Virus genome (UHGV): UHGV-0076931
DNA length: 35,663 bases
Origin: a virus
Reading direction: 5' to 3' (one strand)
Shown: in pieces, positions 6,687 to 34,078 of the stretch
Layout of the letters: each line of letters starts with the position of its first letter
Position numbering within the stretch: position 1 is the first letter of the stretch
Notes under the pieces: generated by a model
What the model was told of the DNA's origin: nothing
Databases searched by the model: none
The model's input: the letters and a program-made list of their open reading frames with translations, nothing else
Program-made: the position numbers and the translations under genes

Positions 6687-9480
6687 TATCCGGGTCGCTT
6701 TCAGCGCCGTTGACAGGCTGACCCGACCTGCCGAAAACGCCCGCCGCCTGATGGGGCAGTTTGGTGACTCCATCCAGCGAACGCAGGGGGCGATCAAAAA
6801 TCTCGAGCGTCAGGCGCGTTCATTTGAGCGCGCCCGCGACGCTGTCAGTAAAGCGGATGCGGGTATCGTGAAAGCGCGACGCCAGCTTAACGCCCTTAAT
6901 CAGTTACAACGCACGGGTACAGTGCTCAGCGAAAAACAACAAAAGCTGATGCAGCAGTTAAGCACCCGGCTTGAACGCCTGAATGAATCGCGCACACGGG
7001 AAATTCAGAAAATGCGGGAGCTTGGCGGAGAGCTGAAACGCCACGGCATTTCCCTGACAGGCAGCGATAACACCATCCAGCAGGCCATCAGACGCACCGA
7101 ACAGTACAACAACCAGCTTGAACGCGAACGGCAGGCGCTTGCGCGTGTAACGCGGGCGCGTGAGCGGTATTCGCGCGCGCAGGAAACCGCGGGAAAACTG
7201 AAAACAGGTGGTGCGCTGGCAATTGGTGCGGCAGCGGCTGGCGGCTATGCTACCGGGCGTTTTTTGCAGCCTGCGATCGGGTTCGGGAAAGAGATGTCCC
7301 GCGTTCAGGCACTGACGCGAATCGACCAGAACAGCCCGCAGTTTAAGGCGCTGCGTGAGCAGGCGTTAAAACTTGGCTCTGAAACGCAGTTCACCGCAGG
7401 CGATGCCGCCAGTGGGCAGGCATTTCTTGCAATGGCTGGCTTCACACCGCAGGCCATTCAGGCTGCGCTTCCCGGAGTGCTGAGCATGGCAACGGCTGGC
7501 GGTATGGATCTCGGCGAGACGGCTGATATTGGCTCAAATATCCTGACGCAGTTCGGCCTTTCTGCTGACCAGATGGACCGGGTCGGTGACACACTCACCG
7601 CAGCGTTTACCCGTACCAACACTGACCTTCGCGCACTGGGCGAAACCATGAAATATGCAGGTCCGGTGGCGGGCAAGCTGGGAATATCGCTGGAGCAGGC
7701 CGCAGCGATGGCGGGCGTGCTGGCGAATATGGGTATCAGGGGAAGTGATGCCGGGACGGCAATGCGTGCCAGCCTGGCTCGTCTGGCATCACCGCCAAAG
7801 GCGGCAGCAGAGGCGCTGAAAGAGCTGGGCGTGTCTGTCTCGGATGCCGGGGGCAAAATGCGCCCGATGGAGGATGTGCTGGCCGACCTTTATAAAGCCA
7901 CCCGCAAATACGGGGAAGTTGACCGGGTATCGTTCTTTAAGGACATTGCCGGAGAAGAGGCTTTCACATCGTTTATGGCGCTCGTTGATGCAGCGGGTGA
8001 CGGTTCCTTACCCAAACTGAGAAAAGAACTTGAAGGCGCGCGCGGTGAGGCTGAACGCACAGCAAAGGTTATGGCCAACAACCTTGACGGCGATCTGAAA
8101 TCACTCGGCAGTGCATGGGAAGGGTTGCGCATCCGCATTGCAGATCTGATTGACGGTCCGCTGCGTTCTGTCACGCAGTGGCTCACGCGAGTGGTCTCAA
8201 AGGTGACGGCGCTGGCGCAGGCCCATCCCGCACTGACGCGCCAGCTACTGATAGCAGGCGGTGCGTTGCTGGCAATGACTGCAACGGTTGGCTCGTTGTC
8301 GCTGGCTATTGGTGTGCTTGCTGGCCCGCTGGCAAAACTGCGTCTTGGTTTTTCTCTCCTGGCCGGATCAATGAATGTCGTCAGGGTGCTGCCAGCACTA
8401 TGGGGAATGGTAACAGGTTCCATCTCGTTGCTGGGTGGCGCTATCGGGGCGCTGTTCAGTCCGGTTGGTCTTATCGTGGCTGCGCTTGCCGGAGCTGCCG
8501 TTCTTATCTGGAAATACTGGGAACCCATCAAGGCGTTTTATGCCGGGGTGTTCAGCGGGATTATGGAACGGCTGGCTCCGTTGCGCGAAACCTTTGAACG
8601 GTTTGGTCCTGTTTTTGATGTCGTGCGCGATGGGATTATTCAGCTCTTTAACTGGTTTAAATCGCTGCTGTCACCGATGGAGTCCAGCAAGGAAACGCTG
8701 GATAAATGTACCAGTGCTGGCGAGATATTCGGTAACGTTCTTGGTGGCGCGCTACAGCTTGTTCTGACGCCTGCAAAAATGCTGCTGGATACGCTGGCGT
8801 GGATACTTGAAAAACTCGGTGTGCTTCCGGATGAAGCGGAAAGGGCGCGCAAGAAAATCGAAGACGCACAGCGTGCGGCCATTCTTCAGGACAAGGTTGC
8901 CTTGCTTCAGGGGGACCTGGCGAAAATCAATCCGCCGAAGCCTGTGGAAAATGGCAATGGCACCGGAGGTGATAACCCCAAAGACAATAAACCGCTCACA
9001 GACAGCAATACCGGTACGCTGCGCAGACTCAGCAAAATTGCTGATAACACTGGTAAGCTGGTTGAGGAGACGAAAAAACGCATTGGCCCCGGCGATATTG
9101 TCTTTAAAAACCTGCCCCGAGCACTTGCTGTTCGTGGGGAGTGGCAGGAGCGGAAGATTGCGCAGGTCAGTAAGCCTGCCCCCGCAATTAATATCACACC
9201 CGTGGTCCCGGCTCCGCTGCCTCCGGCGCTGGTCCCTGTTGTTGCGGCCAGCTCCCGCCCGGTGGCGGAGGCTATACGATCTCCAGTGGCATCAGTTCCT
9301 GTAACTTCCCGTAACCGCGAGCCTGTTGCCTCCGGATTTGGTGGTGAAATTCATGTTCATCTGCATAACGTTGTTACGCAGAATCCCCGCGAACTGGCGA
9401 AACTGGTCGGTGAAATGGTCAGGGCAGAAATGGAACGGCGCGCCCGTGCCGGGCGTGGCAGTTTTTACGATAAAGATTGA
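6637..9480 (+). CDS. T: Tail tape measure protein
   Basis: 947 aa, coiled-coil N-terminal part, Ala/Gly-rich hydrophobic middle; position after E/E'; exact start uncertain (GTG 6637 or ATG 6664/6673). Confidence 0.9.
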   Translation: MSGRHFAAGMQTMKTLDIRVAFSAVDRLTRPAENARRLMGQFGDSIQRTQGAIKNLERQARSFERARDAVSKADAGIVKARRQLNALNQLQRTGTVLSEKQQKLMQQLSTRLERLNESRTREIQKMRELGGELKRHGISLTGSDNTIQQAIRRTEQYNNQLERERQALARVTRARERYSRAQETAGKLKTGGALAIGAAAAGGYATGRFLQPAIGFGKEMSRVQALTRIDQNSPQFKALREQALKLGSETQFTAGDAASGQAFLAMAGFTPQAIQAALPGVLSMATAGGMDLGETADIGSNILTQFGLSADQMDRVGDTLTAAFTRTNTDLRALGETMKYAGPVAGKLGISLEQAAAMAGVLANMGIRGSDAGTAMRASLARLASPPKAAAEALKELGVSVSDAGGKMRPMEDVLADLYKATRKYGEVDRVSFFKDIAGEEAFTSFMALVDAAGDGSLPKLRKELEGARGEAERTAKVMANNLDGDLKSLGSAWEGLRIRIADLIDGPLRSVTQWLTRVVSKVTALAQAHPALTRQLLIAGGALLAMTATVGSLSLAIGVLAGPLAKLRLGFSLLAGSMNVVRVLPALWGMVTGSISLLGGAIGALFSPVGLIVAALAGAAVLIWKYWEPIKAFYAGVFSGIMERLAPLRETFERFGPVFDVVRDGIIQLFNWFKSLLSPMESSKETLDKCTSAGEIFGNVLGGALQLVLTPAKMLLDTLAWILEKLGVLPDEAERARKKIEDAQRAAILQDKVALLQGDLAKINPPKPVENGNGTGGDNPKDNKPLTDSNTGTLRRLSKIADNTGKLVEETKKRIGPGDIVFKNLPRALAVRGEWQERKIAQVSKPAPAINITPVVPAPLPPALVPVVAASSRPVAEAIRSPVASVPVTSRNREPVASGFGGEIHVHLHNVVTQNPRELAKLVGEMVRAEMERRARAGRGSFYDKD

Positions 9481-27628: not shown

Positions 27629-27738
27629 GTTTACGGGATTCTGAAATCCCGTTTTTGCCTGTTTTATGCGCGCTTCATATATCGCGGCGCGTTTTTTGCT
27701 CATTTACGGGATTTGTGAATCCCGTTTCTGTCTGTTTT
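27629..27738. repeat. parC-like site: two copies of a ~36-bp element each containing palindrome ACGGGATT-N4-AATCCCGT
   Basis: Copies at 27629-27665 and 27701-27738, directly upstream of parM; the second lies in the 3' end of the A reading frame. Confidence 0.5.
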
Positions 27739-30497
27739 TTGTTTCCACTGGTCAGGCCACCCCGCAGCAGGTCTGCTTTGCGGCGGGCGCGTTCAGTGGT
27801 TTCACTGATTCTCTGTGCGTGCTCTGCGTCGCGGATGGCGCGCAGCATGTCAGAAAGCACGGTAACGGGTGTTTTCATGGTGTTCTGGTCTTGCTGAAGT
27901 GTGGATGCCAGGCGTGCGGCGGCTTCGGGGTCTGATGCCCCCAGCTGTTCCAGATAGCTGGCGACCGGGTTATGGCGGATCTCCGTGCTGCTTACGCCGT
28001 GGTTACGGCTCAGGCGCTGCCAGAGCTGCGTGATCCGGCTGTCCGGGCGGGTATCCGGTTTGCGTACAATTTCAAATCCCTGCGGTGCAATGATGCTGCC
28101 GTCAACGTACAGACTGCCGCCCCGTAACAGGTGCTGCATCTGCTGTTCACCAATATGCAGGCCGAGAGATTCAGCAGACTCCCGCCATTCTTTAGCGAGT
28201 AATTCGTGGTTATCAGGCAAAGGCCGCAGCTGTTTGCGGCTCTGTGTCCAGCTCTGCATTTCATCACTGCTGTTTTTTGCCTGTTTGTCACGAAGCGAAC
28301 GCATCAGCGCCCGGCGTTCGTGCCGTTTCAGTGAGCGCATCCATTCGTTCACTTCAACGCCGTCAGGGAGCTGCGGCCACGGTGCTGGCCGTTCTTCCGG
28401 CTGTTCTGTCCCGTTGTTGTCCGTTTCCTGTACACGGGGACAGTTATTGCCACGAGTCCAAGGGGCGGCAGGGCCGCCCTGAAGGTCAAAACCATTTTCG
28501 TGGGCGTTGTCTTCTGGTTCTGGTTTACGTCTTACCAATTTCCAGTTATCCGGATGCGTGCACACACGGGAGGATTCCCCGATGAGTGGTGACCAGATCC
28601 CGTAAATCTGTACGCTCTGTTCGCCGTAATCGTTCAGCTCATCTGCGAGGTCGTAGGCGGTGCGAATCAGGTAGTCCTTGCGTGGAACAAGCACGCCACC
28701 CTGTTTTTCAATGTAGGTGGCAAAACACCCGGCATCGGCGGCAGCGAGTACCGCATCCATTGCATCATCTTTCAGCCGTTGCGGGCCTTCCGGATTGCGT
28801 GCCATCTGGCTGGCAAGGCGGCGCAGTTCACGCCACACCTGACGGGAGGGGATGCCAAAGAACTGGAACTGACGGACCCGGTGAAGGCGCGCCCAGCCGA
28901 TGGCGCGCTCCACGCTCTCGGCCATTGATTTTCCGGTTTCGTGGTCAACGCGTGGCTTGCCCGTTTTCGGGTCGATGCCATCCACGGCGCGGCTGTCCAG
29001 GTTCTTTCCGATGTAGGTGGCGATGTAGCTGGTTGGTGTGCCTTTTGAGCCGTCGACATACTCCGCCTTAAAACGCGGAGTTATGTCATCGCCCAGCTCG
29101 TGGCGGTCCTCCTGAATGGCAATATCGCAGACGTGGGACACGATGGTTTCAATCTCGTCCGGATGTGCAAAGACCATCATATGCCAGTGCACAGTGCCGT
29201 CATGGTGAGGCTCCACCGTGCGGATGCCATACCAGCGCAGGCCGTCGCGGTTCAGTTTTTTGCGGACCGCCGCAAAAAACGTGTTAACCAGGTAATCGCT
29301 GGAGTCGCGCATGGTGGCCCCGTTCCATTTGGGGTTCGGATGACCGTTCTCCGTTGTTGCGTGGTATTTTGACGGGCAGGTGACGGTCAGAAACACCGCT
29401 CTGTCGCCACGGGCTTCGGCCAGAAGTTCCAGTCCCTTCATGGTGGCCATCATTTCTGCCTTACGGTGAACCGGGTTACTTACTCCCGCGTAATACACCG
29501 TCTCGAGATCAATCGTGAACCCGTCTTCATTTTCCAGCATGAAACTTTTCAGGAAATCGCGTGTTTTCTCGCGCTGTGCGCGAAACTCGCTTAACGCGTC
29601 CTGGCTCAGATAGGGCGATGTTTTTCTGGAAACCAGACAGGCGGCGCGGAGTTGTTCTTCTCTCCACTCGCAACGTAACAGCCACAGTTTGCGTTTCCAC
29701 CATTCCGCACAGGTCAGGCGAAGGATTGCGCCCGGCAGCAGCTCCGTGTCCGGTTCGTTCCTCCGGTCTTTATCTGTTGTCAGTGCGTCATAATGTGGAG
29801 GCATGATGTGCAGGTGTAACGCCATGCGGGCCAGCATCTGATACGCCTTCAGCGTTACATCCATGGTCAGTTCGCCATCGGTCGCGCCAAAGCCATCGCA
29901 GAGTTTTTCGAAGGTGCTGCTGAACATCGCCGCCGTCATGGTGGCCAGCGTCTGTATCTGGTGTTTGTTGAGCTGCGGCAGGTAAAGCAAATCGTCCAGG
30001 CGTTCGCGTCCGGCAAGGGAGCGATAACCCGGTGTCAGCCAGCGTCCGTCAGTGCGATCCAGACGTTCGAATATTTTGCGTAGGGTTCCGCGTGCATAGC
30101 GTTCCGCCTGCCAGCTCTTTTTGCCTTTCCGGCGATCGGCTTCCTGTTTTTTGCGCAGGAAGGAGAGGTGGCGAATAAGCGGATCGCGCAGATAGGACGG
30201 CAGCAGGCGCAGCGAGGCCATGGCTTCATCCACCGCGTCGCGTGCCTGTTTTCTGGCGTCTCCTGCCAGTGTGATGGTTTTGTCCTGTTTTTCCTGTGCG
30301 TCCAGGCTTTTATTAATCAGGTTGCCCAGCGGCGTGGCGGAGAACGCCGCATCAGCCATTTCCTGGCGGCGCTCGTTCTCTACCCGGTAGGCATCCAGCC
30401 AGGAGGAAAGCGCGGATCCAGGAGCGGGGATCCCCGTTCCTTCACGCCCCACTGCGTGGCGCGGTTGTTGCCAGTCCCTGATGTACTCTGCCGTCAT
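27675..30497 (-). CDS. A: Replication initiation endonuclease A (rolling-circle, HUH type)
   Basis: 940 aa; HUH motif in HWHMMVF and paired tyrosines in YIATYIGK as in P2 gpA; longer than P2 A at the C-terminus. Confidence 0.9.
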   Translation of the reverse strand: MTAEYIRDWQQPRHAVGREGTGIPAPGSALSSWLDAYRVENERRQEMADAAFSATPLGNLINKSLDAQEKQDKTITLAGDARKQARDAVDEAMASLRLLPSYLRDPLIRHLSFLRKKQEADRRKGKKSWQAERYARGTLRKIFERLDRTDGRWLTPGYRSLAGRERLDDLLYLPQLNKHQIQTLATMTAAMFSSTFEKLCDGFGATDGELTMDVTLKAYQMLARMALHLHIMPPHYDALTTDKDRRNEPDTELLPGAILRLTCAEWWKRKLWLLRCEWREEQLRAACLVSRKTSPYLSQDALSEFRAQREKTRDFLKSFMLENEDGFTIDLETVYYAGVSNPVHRKAEMMATMKGLELLAEARGDRAVFLTVTCPSKYHATTENGHPNPKWNGATMRDSSDYLVNTFFAAVRKKLNRDGLRWYGIRTVEPHHDGTVHWHMMVFAHPDEIETIVSHVCDIAIQEDRHELGDDITPRFKAEYVDGSKGTPTSYIATYIGKNLDSRAVDGIDPKTGKPRVDHETGKSMAESVERAIGWARLHRVRQFQFFGIPSRQVWRELRRLASQMARNPEGPQRLKDDAMDAVLAAADAGCFATYIEKQGGVLVPRKDYLIRTAYDLADELNDYGEQSVQIYGIWSPLIGESSRVCTHPDNWKLVRRKPEPEDNAHENGFDLQGGPAAPWTRGNNCPRVQETDNNGTEQPEERPAPWPQLPDGVEVNEWMRSLKRHERRALMRSLRDKQAKNSSDEMQSWTQSRKQLRPLPDNHELLAKEWRESAESLGLHIGEQQMQHLLRGGSLYVDGSIIAPQGFEIVRKPDTRPDSRITQLWQRLSRNHGVSSTEIRHNPVASYLEQLGASDPEAAARLASTLQQDQNTMKTPVTVLSDMLRAIRDAEHAQRISETTERARRKADLLRGGLTSGNKKQTETGFTNPVNEQKTRRDI

Positions 30498-30503
30498 AGT
30501 GAT

Positions 30504-30869
30504 TTACTTCGTCATGCCATTCAGGGTGTCACGGCAGACTGTAGCCAGCCGCTGAATTTCCAGCACGGTGTCTTCTGTGTCGGCATGGCGATGTGTGATG
30601 CGGATGCTGTCGGCAATCACATCGACGATTGCAGAGGATGGGCGCTGGTAAATGCCAATAACGGACGGGGTGCCACCTTCAATGCGGTAAAGCCTGTAAT
30701 TTCCCTCGTGGCTGTCAAGCATGTAGCGACCATCAATAACAATCTTTCCGTCAGCGAGCTGCGGTACAGGCAGGGATTTCAAGTACATGTCATAACGATC
30801 ACGCACGCGAGCGGCAAGATCACGTTCTGTGTTGAGCAGGTATTCAAGAAAGTCGTTGGCGAGAATCAT
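30504..30869 (-). CDS. Hypothetical early protein (121 aa) immediately upstream of A
   Basis: ORF in operon position; no recognisable motifs. Confidence 0.55.
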   Translation of the reverse strand: MILANDFLEYLLNTERDLAARVRDRYDMYLKSLPVPQLADGKIVIDGRYMLDSHEGNYRLYRIEGGTPSVIGIYQRPSSAIVDVIADSIRITHRHADTEDTVLEIQRLATVCRDTLNGMTK

Positions 30870-30941
30870 TGCGGCAATCCTCTTGTTACAGATGTGCGAA
30901 GGCCTCCCGCCGCAAGGTGCAGGAAAGGCCCGGAACAGGAG

Positions 30942-31172
30942 TTAATGGAGTTTGTTTTGCTGCTGGATGAGCTGTTGAAGCTCGTGCAGATCATCCGCCA
31001 GATAGCTGAAAACAGAGGCGGAATAAATGTTTGATAGTGCGTGGCTGCGCTCATGCAGCATATTGATGTGCATGATTTGCGCGACGCGTGATGCGCGGGA
31101 AAGTCTGCGGTTGATTTCAGTCTGGATGTGACGACGCTCCGCGATAGCGCGGTGTGGTTTGCGGTTTGCCAT
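30942..31172 (-). CDS. Hypothetical early protein (76 aa)
   Basis: ORF; basic N-terminus; the 205-aa ORF in another frame over the same region is rejected. Confidence 0.45.
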   Translation of the reverse strand: MANRKPHRAIAERRHIQTEINRRLSRASRVAQIMHINMLHERSHALSNIYSASVFSYLADDLHELQQLIQQQNKLH

Positions 31173-31350
31173 GGTGTGGCCCCTTGTGTAGTAAGTTGTG
31201 AAAACTCACCATCCAGAGCTGCGAAACTGTGGGTGGCGAGACGTACGAGGTTCGCAGTACCGGCTACACAAGAACCCGGCCCGACCGAAGTCGGCCCCGT
31301 ACGCCCCGCCATAATTCTGACGCGAAAAAAACGTGGCAATACAGTACGCA

Positions 31351-31372
31351 CAAAAAAACCGCTGGCGCGGTT
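31351..31372 (-). terminator. Intrinsic terminator inside the early operon
   Basis: Stem aaccgc / gcggtt with loop tggc; run of seven T on the minus strand (caaaaaaa on +). Confidence 0.55.
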
Positions 31373-31494
31373 GTGCGCTTGTGTAGTCAGCAGGCTGCGA
31401 AACCCGGCACCCGTTTTGTGAGGTGCAGCGGAAATGTAACCTGACTGATTGCGGCATGGCAAGCGGTTTTTTTGTGTGTGCATGTTCTGGTTTC

Positions 31495-31794
31495 TTAGTG
31501 GTTCAGAAAAAAATCAAAAACCTTGTCAATGCGTTGCAGCAGCTCTTGCTGTATTGCTTCCGGCGTTTCCGGTTCGCCTGGCGCCTCCAACGTCGCGCAG
31601 AAATCCTCGATTTCATGACGGAGCGTCAGGCGAATGGCGAGAGGTGTGGTTCTGGCGTGCTCCAGCTCATCCAGCAGCGCCAGCACAGCAGACGGCGAGA
31701 GCATTGCGCGAAACGCCAGTAATTTTTGAGGCGTTGCCATTCGTTGCAGGTCAGTCGCCAGTTCGCGTAATTCCTGGTGGTTGATGGCGCTCAT
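31495..31794 (-). CDS. Hypothetical early protein (99 aa)
   Basis: ORF with 4-nt overlap to the upstream gene; no recognisable motifs. Confidence 0.55.
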   Translation of the reverse strand: MSAINHQELRELATDLQRMATPQKLLAFRAMLSPSAVLALLDELEHARTTPLAIRLTLRHEIEDFCATLEAPGEPETPEAIQQELLQRIDKVFDFFLNH

Positions 31795-32036
31795 GCTCTG
31801 GCTTCCTTTAGTAGCTGGTTAAACATGTTGGTAAGTGGATTGCCGCACCCGAACGGCATCGGGTTTATCTGGTAAGAAAAGCGACCGCCTGTTTTGCGCT
31901 CTTTTCTTATGACTGAACCGCTGCGCCAGAGTCGGCGTAACTCCGCATTAATGGCTGTGGTTGGGGTATTCAGTGCTGCGGCGATTTCTCCACCGCTACA
32001 CCCCGGATTGGCGGCGATATAGTCCAGAATGGTCAT
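31791..32036 (-). CDS. Hypothetical early protein (81 aa), possible winged-helix DNA binding
   Basis: ORF; the GGEIAAALNTPTTAINAELRRL stretch resembles an HTH recognition helix. Confidence 0.5.
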   Translation of the reverse strand: MTILDYIAANPGCSGGEIAAALNTPTTAINAELRRLWRSGSVIRKERKTGGRFSYQINPMPFGCGNPLTNMFNQLLKEARA

Positions 32037-32236
32037 CTGCGTGACTCCTGTACCTGTCGGATAAGGTTCACCCGCACCACATTCGTGGCGCAGAAGTAAG
32101 TGCCGTCAGTGAGATAGATGTGATGTGCATCCTTTTCTGAACGGTGTTTGTCGATTGTGGTAATCAGGCGTTCGTCGACTTCGTATTCACGCCCTCTGGA
32201 GGTAAAACGAACGACAGGAAAATGCTTAATTGCCAT
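32033..32236 (-). CDS. Hypothetical early protein (67 aa)
   Basis: ORF with 4-nt overlap to the downstream gene. Confidence 0.5.
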   Translation of the reverse strand: MAIKHFPVVRFTSRGREYEVDERLITTIDKHRSEKDAHHIYLTDGTYFCATNVVRVNLIRQVQESRR

Positions 32237-33790: not shown

Positions 33791-34078
33791 CTAAAGTCCC
33801 AGCCACAACAACCATGCGTCGCGGCGTTCTTTCGGTTGCTCAAAAAACGCTTTGCGCATGCCTTCGTTAAATGCTGGCAGATATACCCAGTTTTCTGATG
33901 CACGCGTCTTTACTGAACCTGGTTTCACAAAGTCAATTGTCGGTAGCTTTGCTGCGTCAATCATGGTTCTGACTGTGGATTCCTTGCGGCCGATCATCTT
34001 GGCGAATAGTTGATATGGCACCGCTTCAAGTGGATATGGTGCTACCTGAATGAACCCCCCAAGCTCTGATTCGCTCAT
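33791..34078 (-). CDS. cox: Cox-like excisionase / lysogeny repressor
   Basis: 95 aa; PYQLFAKMIG...MIDAAKLPTIDF...WVYLPAFNEG...WLLWLGL matches P2 Cox as recalled; AGGGAG SD; divergent from C. Confidence 0.8.
   Translation of the reverse strand: MSESELGGFIQVAPYPLEAVPYQLFAKMIGRKESTVRTMIDAAKLPTIDFVKPGSVKTRASENWVYLPAFNEGMRKAFFEQPKERRDAWLLWLGL

What the first reader, a model, noticed from the sequence alone, without database searches (positions are those of the whole stretch)
31173..31494. Structured 320-bp gap inside the early operon with repeated motif pairs around an intrinsic terminator
Between the 99-aa and 76-aa genes the motif pair CTTGTGTAG...GCTGCGAAAC occurs twice in direct orientation (31183/31218 and 31378/31394) and once inverted (GGTTCGCAG...CTACACAAG, 31249-31272), with a terminator at 31351-31372 between them. 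Mutually exclusive pairings are possible, consistent with an attenuator controlling read-through into gene A, a replication-related site, or a small RNA.
Basis: seen in the sequence. Interest (0 to 1): 0.55.

Follow-up and report, generated by a model that had tools for sequence, protein, structure and literature searches.

The report
P4-type antisense RNA immunity cassette
The "structured gap" is a known kind of phage RNA switch, a small antisense RNA (C4/CI) with a decoy RNA (IsrK/seqA) and matching target sites on the ribosome-binding site of an anti-repressor-like gene; it is unannotated in this P2-family prophage but ordinary in kind.

Summary
The 9-mer occurs three times in the window, all in the gap, against 0.21 expected.

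All features read on the minus strand, and two Rfam families match above their curated thresholds. One is an IsrK-like sRNA (31426..31352, 64 bits) carrying sites a1/b1 and ending in the noted terminator. The other is a C4 antisense RNA (31316..31229, 83 bits) carrying the complementary a'/b'. Sites a2/b2 follow, and b2 overlaps the Shine-Dalgarno sequence of the 76-aa gene, a homologue of the satellite phage P4 epsilon "derepression" protein.

The P4 immunity region (seqA – CI RNA – seqC – kil/epsilon) gives the same hits in the same order. Across about 165 related loci the scaffold is conserved. The recognition sites fall into about 25 combinations, and a'/a1/a2 and b'/b1/b2 always change together.

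The window is a P88-like (P2-family) E. coli prophage. The cassette sits directly upstream of the epsilon-like gene, an ORF and replication gene A.

Verdict: a new, unannotated member of a known system. Interest is modest.

The parts
31459..31479 (-). Upstream arm of inverted repeat I1 (ACACACAAAAAAACCGCUUGC). Its A-tract lies at about -47..-41 of the IsrK promoter. It is complementary (19 of 21) to the 3' half and U-tract of the IsrK terminator (31366..31346). The left edge of the conserved cassette falls here.
   Evidence: I1; the MFE fold of 31500..31340 uses this helix instead of the terminator hairpin, z = -4.7; homology to relatives with different upstream genes starts at 31476-31484; the duplex is kept at -15 to -24 kcal/mol in 14 arm combinations. 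Its function was not established.
31433..31462 (-). Promoter-like site P_isrK (TTGCCA-18 nt-TACATT), the predicted counterpart of P4 PLE. It places the transcription start at about 31426.
   Evidence: The hexamers are invariant in 38 variants. They are kept as TTGCAC/TTGCAA/TTGCCT plus TATATT/TATAGT in the divergent loci L087, L088 and P4, while the spacer differs. This is a consensus match only; no transcript data exist.
31352..31426 (-). IsrK-like sRNA, homologous to the P4 seqA region. It has hairpin 1, hairpin 2 carrying a1, a single-stranded linker carrying b1, and an intrinsic terminator.
   Evidence: Rfam RF01394: 64.1 bits against a gathering score of 50, full length 1-77. P4 8692..8615 gives 60.8 bits.
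31394..31403 (-). a1 site (GUUUCGCAGC; core UUCGCAG 31401..31395), in the top of IsrK hairpin 2. It is complementary to C4 a'.
   Evidence: 4 of 8 pairs show changes on both sides, and 92% of cells are paired.
31378..31386 (-). b1 site (CUACACAAG), in the IsrK linker. It is complementary to the C4 b' loop.
   Evidence: 6 of 9 pairs are compensatory, and 100% of cells are paired.
31350..31372 (-). IsrK intrinsic terminator (AACCGC-GCCA-GCGGUU plus U7).
   Evidence: The helix is invariant in 38 variants (helix 3).
31229..31316 (-). C4 antisense RNA, homologous to the P4 CI RNA. A 17-bp closing stem encloses two hairpins. The predicted mature RNA spans about 31311..31230, and a CCCA (NCCA-like) tail follows the stem.
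   Evidence: Rfam RF01695: 83.2 bits against a gathering score of 45, full length 1-87. The fold is -47.7 kcal/mol, z = -4.5. The helices are 100% paired in 38 variants, with 4 compensatory pairs. P4 8507..8420 gives 74.9 bits.
31264..31272 (-). b' (CUUGUGUAG), the loop of C4 hairpin 2. It is one of the two specificity determinants.
31249..31258 (-). a' (ACUGCGAACC; core CUGCGAA 31257..31251), a single-stranded segment 3' of hairpin 2 in C4. It is the second specificity determinant.
31218..31227 (-). a2 target site (GUUUCGCAGC), immediately 3' of C4. Together with b2 it corresponds to P4 seqC.
   Evidence: always 21 nt after the C4 core.
31180..31191 (-). b2 target site (CUACACAAG, 31191..31183), overlapping the Shine-Dalgarno sequence AAGGGG (31185..31180). 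The SD lies 7 nt before the AUG at 31172.
   Evidence: Sequence; 5 of 9 pairs are compensatory. P4 has the same layout, with UUCACAGG-AGG and 7 nt before the AUG of the 65-codon ORF.
30942..31172 (-). 76-aa epsilon-like 'derepression' protein gene, the first gene under C4 control.
   Evidence: Pfam PF25738: 32.5 bits against a cut-off of 27. It is 29% identical to P4 epsilon, E = 4e-9. P4 epsilon itself scores 170 bits against PF25738. The mRNA is C-rich and G-poor.
27675..30869 (-). Downstream genes of the same transcription unit: a 121-aa ORF (30869..30504, phrog_3237, function unknown) and replication gene A (30497..27675).
   Evidence: The order epsilon-like gene, ORF, gpA is also found in the divergent locus L088.

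Best explanation
The gap encodes an IsrK–C4 RNA regulatory cassette of the P4/P1 type, read on the minus strand and embedded in the early operon of a P88-like (P2-family) prophage. A promoter-like site, predicted to be the counterpart of P4 PLE, starts transcription at about 31426. Most transcripts would stop at the intrinsic terminator (31372..31350) and yield the ~75-nt IsrK-like RNA, which displays sites a1 and b1. Read-through transcripts, or transcripts arriving from the upstream early promoter, contain the ~80-nt C4 RNA. By analogy with P1 C4 and P4 CI RNA, this RNA is cut out by RNase P and 3' trimming. Free C4 presents b' in a hairpin loop and a' in an adjacent single strand. It pairs with a2 and b2 just downstream, and b2 covers the Shine-Dalgarno sequence of the 76-aa epsilon-like gene. 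Translation of that gene is therefore blocked. The untranslated, C-rich mRNA is then probably open to Rho, which would also lower expression of the 121-aa ORF and replication gene A. IsrK carries the same sites and competes for C4, in cis or in trans, so the IsrK:C4 balance sets whether the epsilon-like protein is made. The a/b sequences act as a two-part specificity code that differs between related phages. What is shown here: the family matches, the homology and shared gene order with P4, the complementarity with covariation, and the overlap with the SD. What is inferred from P1, P4 and Gifsy-1 work: the processing, the translation block, the Rho polarity, the decoy role of IsrK, and the anti-repressor activity of the 76-aa protein.
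For: 1. Rfam C4 scores 83.2 bits and isrK 64.1 bits. Both are full length and above the gathering scores.
2. The P4 immunity region gives the same two hits in the same order and with similar spacing. It has a1/b1 at 8667/8651, b'/a' at 8463/8448 and a2/b2 at 8415/8384, with b2 on the SD of the first ORF, followed by epsilon.
3. The 76-aa protein is an epsilon homologue.
4. Covariation in 38 distinct variants:
   - C4:a1b1 has 96.3% of cells paired and 10 of 17 pairs with changes on both sides.
   - C4:a2b2 has 94.3% paired and 9 of 17.
   - The slid controls give 28-59% paired, and 0 of 500 shuffles reach the observed score.
5. Across about 165 loci there are about 25 a'/b' combinations. Each has matching a1/b1 at -105/-89 and a2/b2 at +21/+56.
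6. Cognate duplex energies are -22 to -30 kcal/mol, against -6 to -20 for non-cognate pairs.
7. The C4 scaffold helices are 100% paired.
8. The promoter hexamers are conserved in divergent loci while the spacer is not.
9. [quoted passage not shown] In Gifsy-1, IsrK, STnc1160 and the AnrP anti-repressor are described in PMC4825925, where IsrK supplied in trans switches on translation and induces the prophage.
Against: There are no expression, processing or end-mapping data for this phage, so everything downstream of base-pairing is by analogy. The two best-studied relatives differ in mechanism: a translation block plus polarity in P1, and premature termination in P4. I cannot tell which dominates here. 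The role of IsrK is itself unsettled in the literature: it is required for lysogeny in P4-like elements but activates induction in Gifsy-1. The c4-a1b1 model (RF03163) scores only 20.9 bits against a gathering score of 46.7. The 121-aa ORF has no similarity to P4 orf151, so the shared gene order with P4 is partial. RNAcofold gave no useful support, because loop-to-strand pairing cannot be represented by it.
Confidence: 0.85

Rival explanations
1. The region is a purely cis-acting transcription attenuator. Alternative hairpins within one nascent transcript would decide termination at 31372..31350, and so read-through into gene A, without any trans-acting RNA.
For: The long transcript can fold so that a1/b1 pair with b'/a' in cis (MFE of 31426..31150). 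A 21-nt upstream arm (I1) can replace the terminator hairpin in transcripts that start upstream, and this complementarity is kept in divergent loci.
Against: The terminator lies between a1/b1 and C4, so the a/b pairings form only after the termination decision. The third copy (a2/b2) sits on a ribosome-binding site, not on a terminator. The C4 scaffold is a conserved stand-alone fold with an RNase-P-type NCCA tail and matches a family known to act in trans. The I1 arms hardly vary in the sample, so there is no covariation evidence, and I1 is absent from P4.
Confidence: 0.05
2. The repeats act at the DNA level. They would be three copies, one inverted, of a bipartite protein-binding site, such as iterons or an operator for a replication or regulatory protein.
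For: Direct and inverted copies of a DNA site would also change together between relatives, so covariation alone does not exclude this reading. The region also lies just upstream of the replication gene.
Against: Some variants keep pairing only through G-U wobble (UG/GU cells; the L082/L074 type). Wobble preserves an RNA duplex but not an identical DNA site. The inverted copy sits exactly in the loop and single strand of a strongly predicted, covarying RNA fold that matches RF01695 at 83 bits. One copy overlaps an SD at the same spacing as in P4. In P2-type phages the origin lies inside gene A (established knowledge).
Confidence: 0.03
3. The gap is protein-coding. It would encode an 'Ash family' protein (minus-strand ORF 31483..30866, 205 aa) or one of the plus-strand ORFs that some GenBank records annotate here.
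For: Pfam PF10554 Phage_ASH matches residues 16-109 of the 205-aa ORF at 26.5 bits against a cut-off of 26. P88 and related records annotate hypothetical, 'Ash-like' or 'transcriptional regulator' CDS over the region.
Against: Relatives carry frame-breaking indels inside the ORF: +17 nt in L073, +2 in L025, and +1/+2 in L063 and L081. Substitutions cluster in the complementary motifs and are compensatory at the RNA level rather than showing a codon pattern. The ORF overlaps the well-supported 76-aa gene in another frame. The P4 'cI' CDS that seeds the Pfam match is the locus now known to encode the CI RNA (literature).
Confidence: 0.02

Closest known systems
Satellite phage P4 immunity region (PLE – seqA – CI RNA/seqB – seqC – kil/eta – epsilon – ... 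– alpha)
   Same: Both give the same two Rfam hits in the same order. Both have a promoter directly in front of the IsrK/seqA element, and an intrinsic terminator between seqA and the antisense RNA. In both, a bipartite a/b complementarity appears in three places, and b2 overlaps the SD of the first translated gene with 7-nt spacing. In both, an epsilon-family gene follows and then the replication gene. The specificity loops also diversify combinatorially in both lineages.
   Different: The host element here is a full P2-family phage with its own Cox and repressor switch, not a satellite. The cassette is internal to the early operon, so it also receives transcription from upstream. The epsilon-like gene follows the target site directly, with no kil/eta ORF in between, and is only 29% identical to P4 epsilon. 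The replication gene is gpA, not the alpha primase. The 121-aa ORF is unrelated to orf151. The spacer between the terminator and the antisense RNA is 35 nt here against about 105 nt in P4. The I1 inverted repeat is not present in P4. The a/b types of the two lineages do not overlap in the sample.
Phage P1/P7 immI operon (c4 – icd – ant)
   Same: C4 is the founding member of RF01695. Both have a1/b1 upstream and a2/b2 downstream of the antisense RNA on the same transcript, and b2 masks the RBS of the first small gene. The regulated product is an anti-repressor-type function. Differences in a'/b' define heteroimmunity (P1 versus P7). These points are established knowledge (Citron & Schuster 1990; Heinrich et al. 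1995).
   Different: The downstream proteins are unrelated: an epsilon-like protein here, against Icd and Ant in P1. P1 has no IsrK-type terminated sRNA match reported here. The genomic context also differs (a plasmid prophage in P1).
Salmonella Gifsy-1 isrK – orf45/STnc1160 – anrP locus (PMC4825925)
   Same: IsrK is a terminated sRNA whose read-through transcript carries a complementary, processed RNA (STnc1160) and an anti-repressor gene. IsrK pairs with the downstream region both in cis and in trans. Similar DNA is found in many lambdoid and Stx phages next to ant/rha genes.
   Different: That locus is in a lambdoid prophage, and the regulated gene is a Rha/Ant-type anti-repressor. The authors model the C4-like segment as a translated orf45. 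Here the target RBS belongs directly to the epsilon-like gene.

Membership tests
Rfam RF01695 C4 antisense RNA (clan CL00128) | Covariance-model score at or above the curated gathering score, over the full model | tested here: met
   83.2 bits against 45, model positions 1-87 of 87, E = 4e-15
Rfam RF01695 C4 antisense RNA (clan CL00128) | Fold with a long closing stem enclosing two hairpins, supported by comparative data | tested here: met
   MFE -47.7 kcal/mol, z = -4.5. The three C4 helices are 100% paired in 38 variants, with 4 pairs showing compensatory changes.
Rfam RF01695 C4 antisense RNA (clan CL00128) | Loop b' and single-stranded a' complementary to a1/b1 upstream and a2/b2 downstream on the same strand | tested here: met
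   Covariation gives 10 of 17 and 9 of 17 compensatory pairs. Spacing is fixed in about 165 loci.
Rfam RF01695 C4 antisense RNA (clan CL00128) | Downstream target overlaps the ribosome-binding site of the first regulated gene | tested here: met
   b2 at 31191..31183 overlaps the SD AAGGGG at 31185..31180, with the AUG at 31172. P4 has the same layout.
Rfam RF01695 C4 antisense RNA (clan CL00128) | Expressed and matured (RNase P) as a stable ~77-80-nt RNA that represses in trans | not testable with these tools
   The only sequence hint is a CCCA (NCCA-like) tail after the closing stem, at 31233..31230.
Rfam RF01394 isrK / P4 seqA element | Covariance-model score at or above the gathering score | tested here: met
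   64.1 bits against 50, model positions 1-77 of 77. P4 seqA region: 60.8 bits.
Rfam RF01394 isrK / P4 seqA element | Own promoter at the 5' end and a rho-independent terminator at the 3' end | tested here: inconclusive
   The terminator is found and invariant. The promoter is a 9-of-12 consensus match whose hexamers are conserved in divergent loci. No transcription start site data exist.
Rfam RF01394 isrK / P4 seqA element | Hfq binding and activity as an sRNA | not testable with these tools
   -
Rfam RF03163 c4-a1b1 | Covariance-model score at or above the gathering score | tested here: not met
   20.9 bits against 46.7. The same nucleotides are covered by the isrK match. P4 itself scores 44.1, also just below the threshold.
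P4-type RNA immunity (control of elongation of the replication operon) | Order: promoter – seqA – terminator – antisense RNA – seqC – epsilon-family gene – replication gene | tested here: met
   The replication gene is gpA here rather than alpha.
P4-type RNA immunity (control of elongation of the replication operon) | CI-dependent premature (Rho-dependent) termination that prevents replication-gene expression and confers superinfection immunity | not testable with these tools
   The only indication is the C-rich, G-poor composition of the 76-aa gene mRNA (C/G 1.4-2.0).
Pfam PF25738 Derepression protein (P4 epsilon) family – the 76-aa gene | Profile score above the curated cut-off, and pairwise similarity to P4 epsilon | tested here: met
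   32.5 bits against 27. 29% identity over 66 aa, E = 4e-9. Binding to a repressor was not tested.
Classical terminator/antiterminator attenuator | An antiterminator helix that competes with the terminator and is supported by covariation | tested here: inconclusive
   The I1 helix replaces the terminator in the MFE fold of upstream-initiated RNA and is kept in 14 arm combinations. However, the arms are nearly invariant, the helix pairs with the 3' half and the U-tract (kinetically unfavourable), and the A-tract can be read as a UP element.

The most novel reading that the evidence does not exclude
P2-family (helper-type) phages of the P88 group may carry, inside their early operon, the same RNA-immunity-plus-epsilon cassette as their satellite P4. 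On this reading it would act as a second layer of immunity or induction control, independent of the repressor. Its two-site RNA 'barcode' has diversified into 25 or more combinations (6 a-types by 14 or more b-types), none of them shared with about 11 combinations in P4-like satellites. That would point to cassette exchange between helper and satellite lineages and to selection for non-cross-reacting types. In addition, the conserved I1 helix flanking IsrK might make the IsrK terminator promoter-selective: transcripts from the internal promoter would stop, while transcripts from the early promoter would read through or be cut by RNase III.
Probability: 0.3. Interest if true: 0.55.

Novelty: new member of a known kind. 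Interest (0 to 1): 0.3.

Why it matters
The finding explains an apparently non-coding 320-bp gap present in about 23% of complete E. coli genomes (1253 of 5426). In the one RefSeq locus and one phage record whose feature tables were read, the gap is left empty or carries a dubious CDS, and other phage records list only CDS names over it.

It shows that P88-like prophages, which are inducible with mitomycin C (PMC5285337), have an RNA layer controlling an epsilon-like putative anti-repressor and probably the replication gene. This is relevant to predicting immunity groups, prophage induction and helper–satellite interactions.

It also flags an annotation problem. Pfam Phage_ASH appears to model the translated C4/CI RNA locus, and it has been used as the 'epsilon' marker for detecting satellites.

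Tried and rejected
- **RNAcofold of C4 with its targets or with IsrK.** This was uninformative, because loop-to-strand (pseudoknot-type) pairing cannot be represented. I replaced it with segment duplex energies.
- **Second promoter-like site (31339..31311, TTGCCA-17-AATTAT).** Rejected as a C4 promoter. Its -35 hexamer is TCGCCA in about half of the variants. A start about 7 nt downstream would also remove the 5' strand of the C4 closing stem.
- **LexA box near the cassette.** By eye, only a half-site-like TACTGTAT is present, and it varies in relatives. I did not pursue it.
- **Scan of genome contigs with an epsilon-like alignment.** The first alignment was too divergent to search with. The second returned only 4 loci. 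P0127 found nothing in viral contigs.
- **Do co-resident cassettes in one genome differ in type?** In 7 genomes with two contigs, 5 differ and 2 are identical. The identical pairs are on short contigs or at contig ends (L021/L022, L036/L037), so they may be split copies of one prophage. The sample is too small and not significant.
- **121-aa ORF against P4 orf151.** No similarity. NCBIfam and PHROGs give no function.
- **Cross-reactivity with P4-like satellites.** No shared a' or b' cores were found.
- **DNA-level iteron reading and the 'Ash' coding reading.** Both were considered and rejected; the reasons are given under the rival explanations.

Full report
**Context**

The window is a P2-family prophage of the P88 group (Xuanwuvirus, Peduoviridae). 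The region 30400-32100 is 99.7% identical to Xuanwuvirus P884B11 and 95% identical to Escherichia phage P88. The 661 bp around the gap occur in 1253 of 5426 complete E. coli genomes.

The early operon runs on the minus strand. Its order is Cox (34078..33791), several small genes, a 99-aa gene (31794..31495), the gap, a 76-aa gene (31172..30942), a 121-aa ORF (30869..30504) and replication gene A (30497..27675). A repressor-like HTH gene and an integrase lie on the plus strand. In the feature tables I read, one RefSeq genome and P88, the gap is either empty or carries a dubious CDS. Other phage records likewise list only CDS names over it, and no RNA feature appears in any of them.

**The observation**

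- CTTGTGTAG occurs three times in the 35.6-kb window, all in the gap: twice direct and once inverted. The expectation is 0.21, and 0 of 100 shuffles reach 3.
- GCTGCGAAAC occurs twice, and its complement once.
- The terminator (stem 31372..31357 plus T7) is real but belongs to the minus strand.

**What it is**

A scan of the whole window against Rfam gives exactly two matches at gathering threshold, both on the minus strand and both inside the gap.
- C4 antisense RNA (RF01695): 31316..31229, 83.2 bits against a gathering score of 45.
- isrK (RF01394): 31426..31352, 64.1 bits against 50.

A permissive scan adds only a sub-threshold c4-a1b1 hit over the isrK 5' half (20.9 bits against 46.7) and one very weak match to an unrelated family (13.8 bits, E = 3.2), probably chance.

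Read 5' to 3' on the minus strand, the layout is as follows.
- An A-tract.
- A promoter-like site, TTGCCA-18-TACATT (31462..31433), that puts the start at about 31426, which is the first base of the isrK match.
- IsrK hairpin 1.
- IsrK hairpin 2 with a1 (GUUUCGCAGC) in its top.
- A single-stranded linker with b1 (CUACACAAG).
- The intrinsic terminator.
- A 35-nt spacer.
- C4, with a 17-bp closing stem enclosing hairpin 1 and hairpin 2. The hairpin 2 loop is b' (CUUGUGUAG), and it is followed by single-stranded a' (CUGCGAA).
- A CCCA tail.
- a2 (GUUUCGCAGC), a small hairpin, and then b2 (CUACACAAG) overlapping the Shine-Dalgarno sequence AAGGGG, 7 nt before the AUG of the 76-aa gene.

**Homology with P4**

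The 76-aa protein belongs to Pfam PF25738 'Derepression'. This is the family of the satellite phage P4 epsilon protein, which itself scores 170 bits. The two proteins are 29% identical (E = 4e-9).

I scanned the P4 genome (NC_001609) in the same way. Its immunity region gives C4 at 8507..8420 (74.9 bits, the CI RNA) and isrK at 8692..8615 (60.8 bits, the seqA region with its terminator).

Reading the P4 sequence shows the following.
- a1/b1 (GUGAGAA / UUCACAGG) lie in the IsrK-like element.
- b'/a' lie in the CI RNA.
- a2/b2 lie downstream, with b2 running into the SD AGGAGG, 7 nt before the AUG of a 65-codon ORF. That ORF overlaps the start of epsilon.

The cassette in the window is therefore a homologue of the P4 immunity region, with the epsilon-like gene placed directly behind the target site. 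[quoted passage not shown]

The Gifsy-1 version has been dissected experimentally (PMC4825925). There, IsrK is a terminated sRNA. Read-through yields a processed RNA (STnc1160) and an anti-repressor mRNA. IsrK supplied in trans turns on translation and induces the prophage.

A distant DNA search finds the same cassette next to ant/rha genes in many Stx and lambdoid phages. The two papers on P88-type phages that I could read do not mention it.

**Comparative evidence for the pairings**

I collected about 165 related loci through the epsilon-like protein. The cassette is 86-100% identical overall, yet the differences are concentrated in the six motif positions.

On an alignment of 38 distinct variants (A1):
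- The C4:a1b1 pairing has 96.3% of cells paired, and 10 of 17 pairs show changes on both sides.
- The C4:a2b2 pairing has 94.3% paired, and 9 of 17 pairs show such changes.
- Sliding the partner by 1-3 columns drops pairing to 28-59%, and 0 of 500 shuffles reach the observed covariation score.
- The scaffold barely changes: the three C4 helices are 100% paired, with four compensatory pairs.

A motif scan of all loci finds about 25 combinations, built from 6 a-types and at least 14 b-types that assort freely. In every case a1/b1 lie at -105/-89 and a2/b2 at +21/+56 relative to the C4 core, and they match their own C4.

Summed duplex energies are -22 to -30 kcal/mol for cognate sets and -6 to -20 for non-cognate sets.

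More divergent epsilon-like genes (43-46% identity; Trabulsiella L087 and viral contig L088) also have isrK and C4 upstream. L088 has gpA downstream.

P4-like satellites show the same combinatorial diversification, with about 11 combinations, but none is shared with the P88-like set. This is the pattern expected of immunity-specificity determinants. It is known for P1 versus P7 and for P4 versus phiR73 (my own knowledge of that literature).

**Mechanism, and what is inferred**

Shown here: the two RNA family matches, the fold, the three-way complementarity with covariation, the masking of the SD by b2, conserved promoter hexamers, and a conserved terminator.

Inferred from P1, P4 and Gifsy-1:
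- C4 is excised from read-through or upstream-initiated transcripts (by RNase P in P1 and P4).
- It pairs with a2/b2 and blocks translation of the epsilon-like gene.
- The untranslated mRNA, which is C-rich and G-poor (C/G 1.4-2.0), is then open to Rho, lowering expression of the 121-aa ORF and gene A.
- IsrK competes for C4.
- The 76-aa protein acts as an anti-repressor, by analogy with P4 epsilon, which inactivates the P2 repressor (PMC8628076 and references therein).

I put 0.85 on the identity and the antisense-on-RBS logic, and roughly 0.5-0.6 on the polarity onto gene A.

**Rivals**

- A purely cis attenuator does not fit. The terminator precedes C4, and the third site sits on an RBS.
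- A DNA-level repeated binding site would also covary. However, it does not explain the G-U wobble variants, the position of the inverted copy exactly in the loop and single strand of a strong covarying fold, or the SD overlap shared with P4.
- A protein-coding reading is contradicted by frame-breaking indels in relatives. This reading rests on the 205-aa minus-strand ORF, which hits Pfam Phage_ASH at 26.5 bits.

**Side observations**

1. *Pfam Phage_ASH.* PF10554 matches the conceptual translation of the RNA locus, both here and in the old P4 'cI' CDS (59.7 bits). The true epsilon is PF25738. A major survey of P4-like satellites used PF10554 as its epsilon marker.
2. *The I1 inverted repeat.*
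   - A 21-nt sequence at the left edge of the cassette (31479..31459) is 19 of 21 complementary to the terminator's 3' half plus U-tract.
   - RNA started upstream is predicted to form this helix instead of the terminator (z = -4.7).
   - The complementarity persists at -15 to -24 kcal/mol in 14 arm combinations, including divergent loci.
   - It is absent in P4.
   - It could be a promoter-selective antiterminator, an RNase III stalk that releases IsrK from the early transcript, or simply a UP-element A-tract facing a U-tract. I could not decide between these.
3. *A variant C4.* One relative (L073) has a C4 with a duplicated hairpin 2 that carries two different b' loops.

**Verdict**

This is a new, unannotated member of the C4/IsrK (P4 CI/seqA) family in a P2-family phage. 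The extent of combinatorial specificity diversification and the shared cassette between helper-type phages and their satellite are the only moderately interesting points. Interest 0.3.

Noticed in passing
window 30866-31483 (-); L083 (P4) 8168-8584 (-): Pfam PF10554 'Phage_ASH' matches the conceptual translation of the isrK–C4–a2b2 RNA locus: 26.5 bits here, and 59.7 bits on the obsolete P4 'cI' CDS. The real P4 epsilon is PF25738 (170 bits). PF10554 was used as the 'epsilon' marker in a large survey of P4-like satellites (PMC8628076). It therefore probably tracks the CI/C4 RNA gene, and it can also hit helper-type prophages.
   Followed up: partly
window 31459-31479 and 31346-31366 (-): This is the 21-nt inverted repeat I1 (19 of 21 complementary) bracketing the IsrK promoter and sRNA. 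The upstream arm marks the left boundary of the conserved cassette. It is predicted to replace the terminator hairpin in transcripts arriving from upstream (z = -4.7). The complementarity is kept in 14 arm combinations and is absent in P4. It may be an antiterminator, an RNase III stalk, or a UP-element coincidence.
   Followed up: partly
L073 (IMGVR_UViG_2582580934_000004), about 17-nt insertion in C4 hairpin 2: This C4 variant has hairpin 2 duplicated. It carries two different b' loops (CUUUGCUCU and CUUGUGUAG) but only one a' type. It could be a dual-specificity antisense RNA or a recombination or assembly artefact.
   Followed up: no
L169-L248 (P4-like satellites) against L003-L168 (P88-like): P4-like satellites also show combinatorial a'/b' types (about 3 a-types by 5-6 b-types, about 11 combinations). 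None is shared with the roughly 25 combinations in P88-like phages.
   Followed up: partly
L086 (NZ_JBQPOM010000071.1, 'Vagococcus sp. WN89Y'): A contig labelled as a Gram-positive Vagococcus carries the enterobacterial cassette: an epsilon-like protein 88% identical to the window's, with isrK and C4 upstream. This is probably contamination or a mislabelled assembly.
   Followed up: no
L002 (phage P88) 3641-4982 against window about 31476-31495: In P88 and several relatives, extra genes sit between the Ead/Ea22-like gene and the cassette; in P88 these are annotated lipoprotein/serine protease and membrane protein. Homology to the window resumes exactly at 31476-31484. The cassette's left edge therefore looks like a recombination junction or moron insertion point.
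   Followed up: no
window 31311-31339 (-): There is a second sigma-70-like match (TTGCCA-17-AATTAT) just upstream of C4. Its -10 (AUUAU) is part of the conserved C4 5' flank in the Rfam model, but its -35 varies in relatives. It is more likely a processing or leader element than a promoter.
   Followed up: partly
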